From positions 1,798,001 through 1,862,000 of the forward strand of contig NZ_JAFEUW010000001.1 in NCBI RefSeq assembly GCF_025028335.1: a stretch of DNA of 64,000 bases, given 5' to 3'. The position numbers were made by a program. Shown piece after piece: positions 15,001 to 21,000 of this stretch. The stretch comes from Brachybacterium sillae. GTDB lineage: Bacteria > Actinomycetota > Actinomycetes > Actinomycetales > Dermabacteraceae. Each line of letters begins with the position of its first letter. Positions within the stretch are counted from its first letter, which is position 1.

Positions 15001-18000
15001 CGGCGATCGTGCTCAGCACGTTGGTCATGCGAGGCGTGCGCGCCCGGCCCAGAGTGGCGAGCAAGGCAGACTCTTCGTCGGGACTGGTCCACCCATCGGC
15101 CCGGCCACTCAGCGGATCCCCCAAGGTCTCGTCCCAGTAGTCGCGGATCCGGCCTCCGGCCCACCGGTAGCGGCGACGCGAGGAGAGCCCCAGGGGCTGT
15201 GCCCGAGTGGCGGCGAAAAACGGCTTGGCCATCCGCTACAGTACCAATCCCAACCACCACAAGGAGATGCCGATGCCGAACAACACTGATACCCCGCAGA
15301 ACGAGTCGCAGGACCAGACCAACGAAGTGACAGCCACCGAAAAGCCGGACGTCTCACGGCTCACCCGGCGCCTCGACCACATGGTGCCTGAGCCGAAGGT
15401 CATCTCTGAGGACTGAGCGCTAGAGATACACGATATGAGCGCTACGAATGCCCCCGACCTTACATGGAGCCAGCGTTGGAGCTATTGGTTCCGCCAGCGC
15501 ACCCACGTTTGGTCGGGGGCAACTCAATGGGATGCAGTATTCCCTGACATAAAAACGCCCGTGCGTGAGCTCCGTGCGCTCGAACGTGTGCCGTCTACGT
15601 TCGTGCAGTCTGCGGATGTATTCACACCCGAGTCCTTGCGCGAGCTCAGCACCGAGGCGGAAGAAACTCTCGAGAGCAAAGGATACCTCCACAACGGCAA
15701 GTGGAACGCCGTCGTCGGCCAAGCCGGCTACGACTTCTTGGATTCTTTCGCAATCCCCAGCGTCATTGAGGCGCACACCGGTCTGAAGGTGACTGAACCT
15801 CACGGCGGTACGTACATTGCATATTTGAACGCAGGCGAGAAGCTCGATTTCCACCTCGACGATTTCAGTTTCGGCGAAGTGAACATGTTGCTATGCGTCA
15901 AGCACGAGGGCGTGCCCGACGGTTCGGACGGTAGTGGCACAGTATTCATTGGCCACCACGGCTATGAGAAGTACGTACTTATGCCTGGAGACTTCCTAAT
16001 CTTCGACGGCGCTTTTACGCCACACGGCCGGACGCCACTTGTAGCCGGCGAGCGCGTCATCCTCCTTGCACTGGCTTTCAATACAACGTTCCCGCGCAAT
16101 ATTGACGAGACCTCCCTACCCGAGCCACCACTTTAGGCCGCTATGCATGATCATGAATATACTTTGCGGTTCGGGGCGCCCGGCCCCCCATTGCCCAAGC
16201 GTCGAGTCTTCGATGATTCGGATTATCAAAACACTGCCCATGAGCCGCACGACGATGTGGTCCGACAGCTCACCGCAGTGAGCATTCGTCTGATCGAGCT
16301 TCTTCCCGACCCCTCTCTCAGCCCAGATGAGCGCATCGAGAGATTGTCACGCGTTATACCGACGAGCCAGCTGCAGTCTGCGGGAAGGCGGAGCGCTAGG
16401 AACAAACTCGTAGCTATTCGGCGAAGGCTTGACGAACTAGTACCCCAGTTCTCGGGGGACCCCTTAGCACAAATTCAATTCATGGTGGATAGGCTTGAAG
16501 AGCTAGTGCCAGACGCCGGAACTACTTTCCAGAAGCTAGAGGCAATGGGTGATTATAGAGCAACCGACATAGGTGTGTCGCCCCGCTTCTGGCAATAGTA
16601 CATTAAACCACATAGAATGTAGGGTGGCATGAATAACGCTTTGCTTCACAGGACTAGCCTGCCGGGCGTGGTAACCCGGGCTGAGGTCGCACCATCAATA
16701 GGCTTCAACGAAGCCTTCATGCCGTTCTCTCCTTTGAAGCTCCACGCTTTCTTGACGGACTCGCCAGTAGAACCGATACTTGAAGATGCTCAATTCGACC
16801 TGCTTACGATTGCAGGCAGCGAATTTTTCCTAGTATGGTCACGCAGCGAAGGTGGCACCCTCGATCGCGCGGTCGCGCTAGAGGGCCACACTGTGCAGAA
16901 ACCGACCCCCGCCTTTCGTGCTCTACTCGAACAGGCTCTTACACTCCTTGCGGAAGATGACTCCGTGTTCCCCATTGTGCATGCCTATTCGCCGGCTCTC
17001 GCTTACGTGCGGCCAGCACCGAATTGCGACCGTCCGATCACGTCGTGCACTGTCCCGGATTTCCCGCAGATGTCCTTCCTCTCAGGTATAGCCGGGCGCC
17101 ACATACCTCCGCTAACCGTAATTGCAGAATCGTCGGCACTCCTGCTTGCCGAGAACATTTTCCACGAATCTGTGCATCAATATGTCAACCATCAGCTACT
17201 GACCCAACAACTACTCGCAGAGCGGTATCGGTCCGACGACAGCCCCGAAGTGGATATTTCTTGGCGGCGGAATTTTGACGGAACCCCTCAAAGGTGGCAG
17301 ATAGATCGCGTCCTGCACGCAGCGACCGTCTACACAAATCTGCTTGCCTGGAGGTACAGGGTCTTACGCCGGCCTGATCTCTCCGACGTCGAACGGCGCG
17401 CATTTAGCGAGGCAGCCCTTGCAGGCCTTCGATCAGCCCGCGAGCTTTCTGTGGCGCTGGAGGACAACATCGACTGCTTCTCGCCGCTTGGAGCATTTCG
17501 CGTGGGAGAACTGACCGACCGGTGCGCAATGTACGGCCAGCTTGTGGAATCAAGCGTAAACCCAACCGTTAACTCGCTTACGCACAAGGCTTCTGCGTAA
17601 GATGCAGAGACGTTCAGGCTCTACCTTTTCTTTCGCACAGCGAGCATCGTCGTCCCCCTCATTGATCGCATGAGAAACCGAGTTTTCGCCACGTTATGGT
17701 CGGTTCAAATGGTGCTTTTGCTGGCATCGAGTGGCAGCGCACTTGCGTTAACTCTTACCGTTTTTGATACGTCTTCCTCTGTGGCCGCACTGGGAGCGGT
17801 AACTGCGCTAAGTATGGGATGCTCCATCTATCTCGCCCCGGCAATCGGGTCAGTGCTCGATGGATTCAGCCGCAAGGCAGGTATTCTCATCTCGAACGTA
17901 ATGATTGCTGTCTCCAGTGGGCTTATGGCAATATCGGTGTTCCAGGGGGCACCCCTCCCGATAATGTTGCTTCTAGTTTTCGTTGGAGCGGTCGCAACAA

Positions 18001-21000
18001 CTGCCCAAGGCCTCTCTCTGCAAGCGTCCGTGAGGGTACTCCGCAGGGAAGCGGATCTAACTCGAATCAACGGCATAGTCTCCGTGGTGGAAAACGCCCC
18101 GGTATTCGCCGGACCTATTGTAGGCGCAATCGTATACTCTTTCGCGCAGCCTGCCGCTGTCTTTGCTCTAGAAAGCTTGTTAGCGTTATGTGCAGCTACT
18201 ATTGTTGCGGCTATCCCGTGGCCGTTGGCCGGACCAAGCAGTGATCGACGCTCTCCGAACCCGGTGAAGGGCCTTCGGGAGGGAGTGCGCTTCATTCTCA
18301 CGGATGGGGACCTGATGCGCACGCAAGGCGCGTTCGCTGGCATAAATTTCGCGAACGGGATCTCGACCCCGGTGGTGACGGGTTTCGTACTTGTTGGCGC
18401 AGGCGGTGGCGCATCCAATCTGGTGGAGTCATCGAGATTGACTGCGGTCAATATCGGAGGAGCGTTGGGGCTCCTGTTAGGAGCCACCCTGGTAGTCGCT
18501 CTCGCGTCGCGGCTTAAGCGTCATTCTCTGATTATTGCCGGGATCGTCGTGGGCGCGCTTGCAGGAAGGGTCCTATTGCCGGTCATGACCACTTTGCTCT
18601 GGCTTGTTCCGGCATTTATTATGAGGAATTTGTGCGTTCAGCTGTCTAATGCCCCACTGACAGCGATCTGGCAAGAGCGCACGCCTGTTCCGATACAGGG
18701 CGCCGTGTTTGGTTCGCGACGAATTCTCGGCCAAGGGCTTTACCCGATCGCGGTACTGATCGGCGGCTTCATGGCGGACAGTTTTTCCGAAGCGTCACTC
18801 AGTGCTCTGGAGGCGACAACCTTGGTGATCGTGTTCGCGGGCATGCTCGAGCTTGTAATCGGCATTCTGCTTTGGCGTTCAGGTGCTTTACGTCGCTTGT
18901 CAAGCAGTGCCATGCCCGAGAGTGGCGACGCAACACAGGCGCAGGTTGGTAGGGAGTGACCCTCTTTGCAAATGCAGACGTGGGGAGATATTCTCGGTGC
19001 CCTCTGCGGGTCGGGAATTCGCCCGTCGTCCGCGGCGCAGCCGCTCCACCCTTCTTGCGCATCTATGTGGGATTGACCGTTTCCGGTGCGATGTAAAGGT
19101 CGCGGCCGGCCGCGTCAGTTTCCCCAGGGTGGTGTTCAACGTGGCACGTCTATGCCGTTGGGTGTCGCGTCCGGGGGAACAGTGGGTGGGGCGGCACGCT
19201 CGGGGCTCCCCTTCCTGCGCTGATGCCAGTATATCGCCTGGTGGGGGGCTTGCGGCTAGGCCCCCACGTTGCGCGAGGATCGATTCCTCGCGCGGCCCGG
19301 CTGGCCCGCGAGGACGTGCCACCCCCGGGGGAGATATGACACCGACCAGTACCTTCGACCTGCCCGCACGAGCGGCCGCCAAGGCCGCTCCCGAACGCAC
19401 CAGCGCCGATGACGCCCACTTTCACACCCTTGCTGACGCCATTGCCGCCGATATCGCTGAGGCCGAGCGGAACCTCGCGGCCGCTCTCACGCAGCAGACG
19501 GGTGACGCGCAGGGCCGCGTGGAGCGGGAAGCGCACGTCGACCACTTCCGACGACGCCTTCGCGTCCTGCAGCGCTTCCGACTTGACGCCGTGGTCGGAC
19601 GGATGAGCCCATCCGACGGTTCCCCGCCGATCTACGTCGGGCGCCTCGCCGTGCACGGGGCCGACGGCACACCGCTACTAGGGTGTGTTGTGAAAGGGTG
19701 TCCCGCCATCGGCGGGGCACCCTTTCGGTATGAGCGATCGAGATGTGATCACGGACGAGGTGTGGGCGCTGATCGGGCCGTGCTTCCCCGCGCCGAAGGC
19801 GACGGGTCGGCCGCCGATGGATCGGCGGCTGGTCGCGGAAGCGGTCGCGTGGAAGTTCCGGACCGGGTCGCCGTGGCGGGACGTGCCGGAACGGTTCGGG
19901 AACTGGAACACGATCTACCGCCACTTCGACCGGTGGGCCAAGACCGGCGTGTGTGCGTGCGCGCTCGAGCGCGCCCAGCAGGCCGCCGACGCGCAGGGCG
20001 AGCTGGACTGGGTGTGCTCGATCGACTCGACGATCGTGCGCGCCCACCAGCACGCCGCGACCCTTCCCCGCCACACAGGGGGGCCCATCGAACTACAAGA
20101 ATCTCGGGCCTGAGCCGGGCGACCACGCGATCGGCCGCTCCCGAGGCGGCCTGACCTGCAAGATCCACGCCGTCTCGGACGGGAAGGGCCGCCTGCTCGC
20201 CTTCGTCCTCACCGGCGGCCAGGCCGCCGACACGAGCCTGCTCCCCGAGGTCCTGGACCAGATCCGGGTCCCCAGGCCAGGCCCTGGCCGGCCCCGCACC
20301 CGCCCGGATAGGGTCCTCGCGGACAAGGGGTATCCCTCCCGCGCGAACCGGGTCTGGCTCGCCGAGCGCGGCATCAAGGCCACCATCCCCGACCGGCAAG
20401 ACCAGGCCGCGCACCGGCGCCGACGCGGCTCAGCCGGCGGACGCCCGCCCGCTTTCGACCCCGAGGTCTACCGTGGACGCAACGTGATCGAGCGGTGCTT
20501 CGCCAAGCTCAAGCAATGGCGCGGCATCGCGATGCGCACCTGCAAGACCGCCCGCAGCTACGCCGCGGCCATCTCGCTCGCCGCGACCCTCCACTGGCTG
20601 ACCAGCAAAGTTTGACAACACGCCCTAGTCAAAGCGCTGAACCGGTGCTTCCAGGGCGTGGCACACCAGCGGTGCCGGGTCCACTTCGCCCGCAACCTGC
20701 TCGCCCACGTCCCCAAGGGCCAGGCCGACTACGTGGCCGCCGCGTTCCGGATGATCTTCGCCCAACCCACCCCCGCCGACGTGCACGCCGCCTGGGACAA
20801 GACCCGAGACGAGTTCGCCGCCCGGTTCCCCAAGCTCGGCCCGCTCATGGACGACGCCAAGGTCGAGGTGCTCGCCTTCACCGCCTTCCCCCGCGAACAC
20901 TGGCGCAAGATCTGGTCGACTAACCCACTCGAACGCGTCAACAAGGAGATCAAGCGCCGCGCCCGCGTGGTCGGCATCTTCCCCAACAGCGCCTCGGTGA

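What a model noticed while it worked through the whole genome (the two positions that open the first line are those of the whole stretch)
15273..18959. Radical-SAM-free RiPP cluster: RLTRRLDHMVPEP precursor, 2OG-Fe dioxygenase, uncalled 151-aa protein and aKG-HExxH enzyme [...]
A 57% GC island holds a 47-aa ORF, a 2OG-Fe(II)-dioxygenase-like gene, a 151-aa ORF missed by the caller (1814143-1814598), an HExxH protein and an MFS exporter, and the first four recur in the same order in two distant actinomycetes with a 13-residue stretch of the peptide identical. It is likely a new RiPP class in which two iron/2OG enzymes oxidise the conserved peptide without any radical SAM or cyclase. New would be the precursor family, the HExxH-dioxygenase pairing and a conserved accessory protein that itself carries precursor-like RRLDxxVP repeats.
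Evidence so far: Genes and uncalled ORF: calls 59, 61, 67. Streptacidiphilus pinicola and Planobispora takensis loci have precursor, dioxygenase (43%, 49%), 151-aa protein (55%, 53%) and HExxH (41%, 40%) in order, then a second dioxygenase. The motif pattern hit exactly these 2 places in the GTDB collection and 0 in metagenomes. g01637 hits TIGR04267 aKG-HExxH at E 6e-6, under the cut, with motif HESVH; 193 library relatives. The 151-aa protein has 13 homologues, no Pfam, 56% mean column identity in 11 aligned.
(Added by a program. Inside this text positions count along the whole contig: contig position 1,798,001 is position 1 of the stretch shown here. "Call 12" and the like, gene names such as g00115 and contig names such as C1 are that model's own, and its searches are not shown. 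The text may have been shortened before it was handed on; [...] marks where a part breaks off. The agent that wrote the report below was given it as the finding of a first reader that could run no searches.)

Follow-up and report, generated by a model that had tools for sequence, protein, structure and literature searches.

The report
Peptide-hydroxylase cassette with substrate-mimic partner
A mobile five-gene cassette encodes a short peptide, two iron enzymes predicted to hydroxylate it, an exporter, and a small protein built from histidine-free copies of the peptide's own motif that likely helps the enzyme act on it; related cassettes are common in Streptomyces-like soil bacteria and were not found described in the papers searched.

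Summary
The five ORFs, the low GC and the Planobispora/Streptacidiphilus matches are real. The family is far larger than three loci, and the dioxygenase is optional. The constant unit is a 14-residue core, VxxLTRRLDHxVP[D/E] (His in 54 of 54 distinct cores), beside an aKG-HExxH-type enzyme; 38 of 401 sampled Streptomycetaceae genomes carry a close HExxH relative. Three layouts occur: A (this window: peptide, free 151-aa protein, HExxH, cognate MFS, sometimes dioxygenase); B (tandem cores, HExxH, TPR::dioxygenase, no exporter); C (core fused to the 151-aa domain, plus HExxH). The 151-aa protein is a paralogue of the precursor: its repeats read RLD-E-LVP where the core reads RLD-H-xVP. It occurs fused to the core, free, or fused to the HExxH enzyme. 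Best reading (inferred): the HExxH enzyme beta-hydroxylates the core His/Asp, with the 151-aa domain acting as a detached recognition domain; no product is known. rSAM-free HExxH systems and HExxH-plus-second-2OG-enzyme pairings are already published; the precursor family and mimic domain were not found in print. In this strain an IS5-linked inversion broke helR and replaced the DNA just upstream of the precursor, so this copy may be silent.

The parts
15237..15266 (+). -10-like hexamer TACAGT (15237-42) and RBS AAGGAG (15261-66). The DNA upstream of 15230, where a -35 box would lie, is helR sequence in this strain
   Evidence: Sequence. In run X1 the loose end before 15230 places a -35-like hexamer 18 nt upstream of this -10 (one run only). 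L002 and L053 show TTGAC-18 nt-TAATGT upstream of their precursors. Promoter role inferred by eye; the consensus scan does not list it
15273..15416 (+). 47-aa precursor peptide; acidic, unconserved N-terminus; single core V27-E40
15351..15392 (+). 14-residue core VSRLTRRLDHMVPE; His36 is the predicted modification site
   Evidence: Leave-one-position-out census of distinct short-precursor cores: T 54/54, R 54/54, D 53/54, H 54/54, P 54/55; the residue after His is variable
15435..16136 (+). Fe(II)/2-oxoglutarate dioxygenase with a double-stranded beta-helix fold, nearest to prolyl hydroxylases (PHD/P4H) and HalD/HalB/BesD-type enzymes; accessory in the family
   Evidence: H140, D142, H197 and R199 invariant in 51 of 51. 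AF2 pLDDT 94.2. Foldseek top hit HalD 7u6h, E 6e-10. VIA 6f0w PHD Z 15.1, rmsd 3.4, 165 aligned; 4iw3 P4H Z 14.5; HalB Z 13.8
16143..16598 (+). 151-aa all-helical 'F' protein: core-less paralogue of long fused precursors, with His-free pseudo-cores at residues 89-103 and 111-125
   Evidence: fused to HExxH in P0048/P0091
16629..17600 (+). Stand-alone aKG-HExxH-type enzyme (H179, E180, H183, H230); the constant enzyme of the family
   Evidence: Invariant EN..HExxH, WR and DR..HA in 50 aligned. Profile hits ChlH 8s5f at E 0.013. 48 of 50 members match TIGR04267 at E<=0.01
17670..18959 (+). MFS exporter, cognate to layout A
   Evidence: Pfam. tblastn finds relatives (28-44%) in 7 of 84 loci searched, all layout A, and no other copy in this genome
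19240..19680 (+). 5' part of helR (RNA polymerase recycling motor) with an RAE-like inverted repeat near 19246-19265; inverted together with the cassette in this strain
   Evidence: blastn to intact relatives. The RAE name and consensus are recalled, not from a call
14823..15231 (-). Middle part of helR, now abutting the precursor's upstream edge (left inversion junction)
   Evidence: NF041254 E 1e-65. 4 of 4 other runs join 15231 to 19681 on opposite strands
19681..20628 (+). IS5-like element at the right inversion junction (family name read by eye); 6 near-identical full copies in the genome

Best explanation
This is a horizontally acquired peptide-modification cassette of an undescribed family, in which the HExxH iron enzyme likely hydroxylates the conserved RLDH core of the 47-aa peptide (His, possibly the adjacent Asp), the 151-aa protein likely acts as a detached recognition domain for that enzyme, the second dioxygenase likely adds an optional hydroxyl (Pro is the best guess), and the MFS would export the product. 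Shown: the genes, the invariant 14-residue core, its constant linkage to one HExxH family, the paralogy of the 151-aa domain to the precursor and its three states (core-fused, free, enzyme-fused), the accessory status of the dioxygenase, and the inversion. Inferred: the core is both recognition site and substrate, because flanks vary from 1 to 25 residues and L121 stacks three 14-mers with no spacer. His is the target, because it is invariant in cores and replaced (Glu in 35 of 49) in the pseudo-cores. F supplies in trans the enzyme-gating contact that a leader supplies in PflC. Trimming would need a host protease here (an M13 peptidase is in the cluster in L001/L004). This strain's copy has probably lost its -35 box.
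For: HExxH-anchored test: 29 of the 30 best loci have the core directly upstream. Core invariance. A PSSM from short cores hits the window's F at residues 89 and 111 (P 0.007 and 0 of 300 shuffles). The pseudo-core spacing of 21-22 (49 of 49) matches the tandem-core spacing of 20-23 (41 of 41; 30 at 22). A tree of the shared body alone splits core-bearing from core-less F at 100/99, with the HExxH-fused copies nested among the core-less ones (39 rows). HExxH and third-His motifs align with ChlH. Characterised aKG-HExxH enzymes hydroxylate His, Asp, Phe, Gln and Pro (PMC13060819 passages), and leader binding gates oxygen activation in PflC (PMC12636437). The dioxygenase model is nearest to peptide prolyl hydroxylases. 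M13 peptidase and MFS lie in the same run of genes in L001/L004. No HExxH relative in 60 of 60 related genomes, with GC 56.5% against 71%.
Against: No product or activity is known. Layout B, the commonest (39 of 83 loci with the full tandem pattern), has no F gene, and none was found in the one such genome searched whole, so F is not required by every enzyme of the family. The F-HExxH fusion is a single event (two contigs, one 90% cluster). Layouts B and C have no cognate exporter, and no protease was seen beside them. A subfamily of about 125-aa F relatives starts with QRL[DE] but has no His; its neighbours are unknown. The window HExxH scores below the TIGR04267 cut. The dioxygenase's usual 2OG-binding position is Arg in only 12 of 51. 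The core Pro is kept in loci without a dioxygenase (L121). Free F also tracks the MFS exporter, which fits an export or self-protection role equally well.
Confidence: 0.5

Rival explanations
1. The HExxH enzyme mainly cuts the backbone (oxidatively or hydrolytically, like PflC/PosC), releasing cores from tandem precursors and from the fused F domain, so no protease is needed.
For: No protease is seen in the window, in L121 or in layouts B and C, yet L121 has three abutting cores. PflC/PosC cleave peptide backbones (PMC12636437). An aldo-keto reductase in L001/L004 could reduce the ketone such a cut leaves.
Against: PosC cleaved at Ala and Gly but not at Val, Ser or Gln (PMC12636437), and the core has no conserved Ala or Gly. 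L001/L004 carry their own M13 peptidase.
Confidence: 0.18
2. The 151-aa protein binds the peptide or its product (helix complementation, export chaperone or self-protection) rather than the enzyme.
For: The cognate MFS occurs only with free F (7 of 84 loci searched plus the window). In layout C the core is simply the first helix-like repeat of the same protein.
Against: F is fused to the HExxH enzyme in P0048/P0091, and that copy belongs to the free-F side of the tree. The F-MFS link is confounded by kinship.
Confidence: 0.17
3. The product is not a released small molecule but an intracellular modified peptide or protein with a regulatory or anti-phage role, as proposed for exporter-less lanthiphage clusters.
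For: Layouts B and C lack the cognate exporter. They sit at variable, mobile sites: plasmids, a provirus contig, and an element with RepA/ParA genes 4 kb from Gabija. XRE/DUF5753 and NsdA-like regulators are frequent upstream.
Against: PADLOC on 118 neighbours from 16 layout-B loci gave 4 proteins with generic single-gene hits and no complete system (no random control was run). Layout A, including this window, has an exporter.
Confidence: 0.1
4. It is a ribosomal metallophore: beta-hydroxy-Asp and beta-hydroxy-His in repeated cores chelate Fe(III).
For: The invariant Asp-His pair and multi-core precursors. These hydroxy acids are siderophore ligands (recalled).
Against: No IdeR/DtxR-like box: best match at most 12 of 19 in 61 upstream regions, same as shuffles (consensus recalled). 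No siderophore uptake genes among the neighbours scanned.
Confidence: 0.05

Closest known systems
pfl/pos clusters of Pseudomonas (PflC, PosC; PMC12636437, read from the abstract to the conclusions, parts 1-4 of 6)
   Same: Stand-alone aKG-HExxH enzyme without a radical SAM; no protease in the cluster; enzyme needs a folded recognition segment
   Different: pfl has an NHLP-type leader, a poly-Gln/ARMD core, an MNIO-nitroreductase and a GNAT. Here the precursor has no conserved leader, the core is RLDHxVP, and the folded segment is a separate gene paralogous to the core
ChlBH/ChlH, triceptide rSAM-HExxH (PDB 8s5f; Morishita 2024 not held; known from PMC12636437's introduction)
   Same: HExxH, PWR and LHA motifs align (E 0.013); ChlBH hydroxylates Asp and His
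   Different: ChlBH is fused to a radical SAM and needs a cyclophane first; no radical SAM here
Biphenomycin bip cluster (PMC12707348, passages) and nitrilobacillin pes cluster (PMC13060819, abstract and passages)
   Same: aKG-HExxH used alongside other iron oxidases; bip also has a JmjC-domain protein, a TPR protein and an MFS
   Different: There HExxH is an optional tailoring enzyme beside an rSAM/MNIO or a nitrile synthetase; here it is the only constant enzyme
Partner-protein-dependent graspetides, rosaritide and corallotide (PMC13097080, abstract only)
   Same: RiPP enzyme depends on a co-encoded partner protein; repeated cores hydroxylated by a divergent 2OG oxygenase
   Different: ATP-grasp macrocyclisation there; the abstract does not describe the partner as a paralogue of the precursor
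PHD/P4H prolyl hydroxylases and HalD/HalB/BesD family
   Same: Predicted DSBH fold and HxD...H triad
   Different: 10-16% identity; extra Trp-rich N-terminal helices; Asp kept, so hydroxylase-type rather than halogenase-type (rule recalled)

Membership tests
aKG-HExxH beta-hydroxylases (TIGR04267/IPR026337) | HExxH plus downstream third His, aligned with ChlH | tested here: met
   H179, E180, H183, H230 invariant in 50; aligned to 8s5f
aKG-HExxH beta-hydroxylases (TIGR04267/IPR026337) | Score above the curated cut-off | tested here: not met
   Window protein 26.5 bits against 40; 48 of 50 relatives match at E<=0.01, best 6.6e-12, bit scores not shown
aKG-HExxH beta-hydroxylases (TIGR04267/IPR026337) | ChlH-like fold | not tested
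aKG-HExxH beta-hydroxylases (TIGR04267/IPR026337) | Fe/2OG-dependent hydroxylation of a peptide | not testable with these tools
   needs assay
Triceptide (rSAM-HExxH) clusters | Radical SAM/SPASM cyclophane synthase in the cluster | tested here: not met
   None among the five genes or among 187 neighbours scanned from related loci
pfl/pos family | NHLP leader, poly-Gln plus ARMD core, MNIO-nitroreductase | tested here: not met
   Precursor sequences; Pfam and NCBIfam scans
Fe(II)/2OG dioxygenases (DSBH) | HxD...H facial triad | tested here: met
   51 of 51
Fe(II)/2OG dioxygenases (DSBH) | Double-stranded beta-helix fold | tested here: met
   Predicted model, pLDDT 94; Foldseek E 6e-10; VIA Z 15.1
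Fe(II)/2OG dioxygenases (DSBH) | Conserved Arg/Lys about 10 residues after the distal His for 2OG | tested here: inconclusive
   Position 207 is R in 12 and K in 1 of 51; R199 is invariant instead
HalD/BesD halogenases | Gly/Ala in place of the triad Asp (recalled) | tested here: not met
   D142 in 51 of 51
RiPP (general) | Short precursor with conserved core linked to modifying enzymes | tested here: met
   29 of 30 HExxH-anchored loci
RiPP (general) | Conserved leader or follower distinct from the core | tested here: inconclusive
   Short precursors have none; the F domain is a candidate follower, fused in layout C
RiPP (general) | Proteolytic release of a modified product | not testable with these tools
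   No protease in this copy; M13 peptidase in L001/L004
Anti-phage RiPP clusters (lanthiphage-like) | Co-location with defence systems | tested here: inconclusive
   No complete system near 16 layout-B loci; Gabija near 1 layout-C locus; no control. Lanthiphages reach only 26.6% (10.1101/2024.06.26.600839, passages)

The most novel reading that the evidence does not exclude
A widespread leaderless RiPP class whose recognition element evolved by duplication of the substrate itself. A His-free pseudo-substrate domain moves between precursor-fused, free and enzyme-fused states and licenses an HExxH oxygenase to modify self-contained 14-residue cores. This would be a natural counterpart of engineered leader-enzyme fusions, with layout B present in roughly a tenth of the Streptomycetaceae genomes sampled.
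Probability: 0.33. Interest if true: 0.82.

Novelty: new variant of a known kind. Interest (0 to 1): 0.66.

Why it matters
aKG-HExxH enzymes give chemistry that cannot yet be predicted from sequence (PMC13060819). This family offers dozens of near-identical three-gene cassettes in culturable Streptomyces and Kitasatospora with a 14-residue substrate, so it is directly testable by co-expression. If F works as inferred, it shows how a RiPP recognition domain can arise from the core itself and work in trans, and it would give a portable hydroxylation tag. The family has no curated model in the libraries scanned and its members are named hypothetical, so rule-based mining would miss it.

Tried and rejected
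Complex prediction of HExxH with F (own alignments): no answer, score 0.00 against a mark of 0.32, so no evidence either way. F model: no Foldseek match at E<=0.001, best VIA Z 4.0, no Atlas hit, PDB profile best E 0.024; this does not show a new fold. F and HExxH profiles are unrelated (hhalign 0.4%). The Sma aminomalonate pathway was considered as the known identity and rejected: SmaX is an HD-domain enzyme (PMC12186529, abstract only). Motif strings RLDHSVP, RLDHMVP, LDHSVPD and LTRRLDH: 0 papers. Keyword searches listed no paper describing this family; two searches were for the anti-phage comparison. Subscription papers, the SSN supplements of PMC12636437 and Morishita 2024 were not seen and could list these clusters. 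Selection test: 31 coding differences among the 40 rows shown (109 hidden) gave 19 non-synonymous and 12 synonymous over 2652/897 sites, inconclusive. No RNA holder listed; a second read-laying did not complete, so the upstream promoter rests on one run. The 18-mer from that upstream sequence was not found in this genome. No TPR homologue in this genome. No Rfam hit. No F in viral contigs and no long form in plasmids. Phylum-wide draw: 0 of 400 other genomes. Rows dropped: three long F-profile hits (P0073, P0083, P0088) as probable repeat noise, two of them inspected; P0074 and P0079 from the F tree (not trimmable); L042 and L049 neighbours (10 proteins) from PADLOC as near-duplicates of L039. 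The HExxH tree used 14 of the layout-B rows. Earlier scan notes by sequence: nothing.

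
Full report
Observation. The stretch 15273-18959 is 56.5% GC in a 71% GC chromosome. None of 60 related genomes (36 of the same genus) has the HExxH gene, so the cassette was acquired horizontally. The Planobispora and Streptacidiphilus loci match as stated. After the second dioxygenase they continue with an M13 peptidase, a TPR protein, an aldo-keto reductase and an MFS.

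The family is much larger than reported. A dioxygenase-based scan of GTDB gave 68 loci, and an F-based scan of metagenomes gave 14. Over these 82 loci plus the window, 105 cores were found in 64 loci by a pattern. Because that pattern fixes residues, I recounted with each position masked in turn: among distinct short-precursor cores T, R and H are 54 of 54, D 53 of 54 and P 54 of 55, while the residue after His varies (S 36, M 10, others 9). An HExxH-anchored search, independent of the dioxygenase, hit 47 of 401 genomes drawn from the family of Streptomyces corynorhini at E<=1e-8, 38 of them below 1e-50. The draw includes the centre genome and genomes used for the profile, and may over-weight Kitasatospora. 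Of the 30 best loci, 29 have the core upstream and 30 the TPR domain (29 with a full dioxygenase). A phylum-wide draw found 0 of 400 others, so the family is patchy outside that group. Many layout-B copies are truncated or have lost the core.

Three layouts. A: short peptide, free 151-aa F protein and HExxH, usually with a cognate MFS (window, L001, L002, L004, L053, L069, L070, L071, L078, L121). The dioxygenase is present in the first five and not seen in the rest; L069 and L071 begin at the precursor, and L121 is seen over 13 kb. L053 (Allokutzneria oryzae) has the window's exact order. B: one or two tandem cores, HExxH and a TPR::dioxygenase fusion, with no F and no cognate MFS (43 loci with the clean pattern). 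C: a protein of about 140 aa that begins with the core and continues as F, followed by HExxH (L073-L081); only L074 adds a dioxygenase and TPR. On an HExxH tree of 37 rows, B (100/99) and C (95/89) each form one side of a branch, and the window falls among layout A near Nocardiopsis. The HExxH enzyme is the only constant enzyme.

The 151-aa protein. Its homologues P0012 and P0013 start with the RLDHMVPDP core. A profile search gave 56 proteins. Of 69 classified, 22 have a core-like N-terminus, 44 do not (many are fragments) and 3 were set aside. A matrix built only from short-peptide cores picks two sites in the window's F, at 89 and 111 (P 0.007 and 0 of 300 shuffles). These read RLD-E-LVP where the core reads RLD-H-xVP (Glu in 35 of 49, His in none of the five commonest residues), and their spacing of 21-22 equals the tandem-core spacing of layout B. 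The AF2 model is all-helical (pLDDT 85.6, pTM 0.62). P0048 and P0091 fuse F to the N-terminus of an HExxH enzyme; they come from two contigs but one cluster. A tree of the shared body without the core splits core-bearing from core-less proteins at 100/99 and nests the enzyme-fused pair among the core-less ones. So F is a paralogue of the precursor that occurs in three states. This is shown; its role is inferred.

The enzymes. The HExxH profile hits ChlH (8s5f) at E 0.013 with the HE..H, PWR and LHA blocks in register, and 48 of 50 members match TIGR04267, although the window protein is under the cut. The dioxygenase, which has no family hit, folds confidently (pLDDT 94.2) as a DSBH enzyme. It is closest to HalD/HalB by Foldseek and to PHD/P4H prolyl hydroxylases by VIA (Z 15.1). 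The triad is invariant, but the usual 2OG-binding position is not.

Mechanism (inferred). Residues after the core number 1 to 25, several precursors end within two residues of it, and L121 stacks three 14-mers without a spacer. The motif therefore cannot be a leader for a downstream core; it is most simply the substrate. Characterised aKG-HExxH enzymes hydroxylate His, Asp, Phe, Gln and Pro (PMC13060819, passages), and His is the residue that separates cores from pseudo-cores. In PflC the leader is needed for oxygen activation (PMC12636437, read to the conclusions). A follower that is fused in C, free in A and tethered to the enzyme in P0048 fits that role. Against this, layout B manages without F, free F also tracks the exporter, and a His-less long subfamily exists. 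Rivals are backbone cleavage, product binding by F, an intracellular or anti-phage role, and a metallophore. PADLOC and the iron-box scan gave the last two little support.

This strain's copy. In 4 of 4 other sequencing runs, contigs join window 15231 to 19681 on opposite strands. There the cassette lies directly upstream of an uninterrupted helR 5' region, and one 11.6-kb contig covers the whole cassette with 48 differences and no gaps. In the window's strain the segment is inverted at an IS element present in 6 full copies, helR is broken, and helR DNA begins 42 bases upstream of the precursor's start codon. One run shows a -35-like hexamer 18 nt before the -10-like TACAGT that remains, the same spacing seen in L002 and L053. 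The copy has probably lost its -35 box. All five frames are open.

Comparison and novelty. Radical-SAM-free aKG-HExxH clusters are published (pfl/pos, pes), and biphenomycin already combines an HExxH hydroxylase with a JmjC-domain protein, TPR and MFS (PMC12707348, passages). Earlier notes of this scan list other stand-alone HExxH cassettes (untested here). What I did not find in print is the RLDHxVP precursor family, its leaderless multi-core forms and the precursor-derived partner domain: motif search 0 papers, keyword searches. Subscription papers and supplements were not seen. Verdict: a new variant of a known kind, real, widespread and easy to test; interest 0.66.

Noticed in passing
window 14823-15231 (-) and 19240-19680 (+): helR (rifamycin-resistance RNA polymerase recycling motor, NF041254) is split by an inversion and cut by insertion sequences in this strain; 4 of 4 other runs show the two parts joined. 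An RAE-like inverted repeat (name recalled) lies near 19246-19265.
   Followed up: yes
window 13459-14700 (-): One 413-aa open frame joins an ISL3 N-terminus (zinc ribbon, HTH) to an IS256/Mutator C-terminus: a chimeric transposase, probably from recombination between two elements.
   Followed up: no
L121:7768-7989 (-) (G413): 73-aa precursor with three abutting 14-residue cores, followed by F, HExxH and MFS without a dioxygenase; the best minimal system for experiments.
   Followed up: yes
P0067, P0070, P0072, P0074, P0077-P0080, P0085, P0089: About 125-aa relatives of F that begin with QRL[DE] but have no His and lack the C-terminal KLE..GD motif; the five placed in the tree form their own 99/99 branch. 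Gene neighbours unknown.
   Followed up: partly
L003, L007, L009-L011, L015, L050, upstream divergent gene about 4600-5950: About 450-aa regulators beside layout-B cassettes (the L003 one is NsdA-family TPR-like), plus XRE/DUF5753, DUF6879, HD_3 and GNAT genes in other loci: a recurrent Streptomycetaceae insertion hotspot.
   Followed up: partly
L070:4500-6000 and L078:4521-5734: Two layout-A loci share unannotated membrane-protein genes beside F (no Pfam hit; only a weak NCBIfam hit).
   Followed up: no
L077:102-3670: Gabija (GajA and GajB, E about 1e-220) on the same mobile element, 4 kb from a layout-C cassette.
   Followed up: partly
L084 (IMG/VR contig) and plasmid hits H1-H4: Layout B also rides on a predicted provirus and on four Streptomyces plasmids.
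   Followed up: partly
window 37001-43000: A second region of lowered GC (0.66-0.69); not examined.
   Followed up: no
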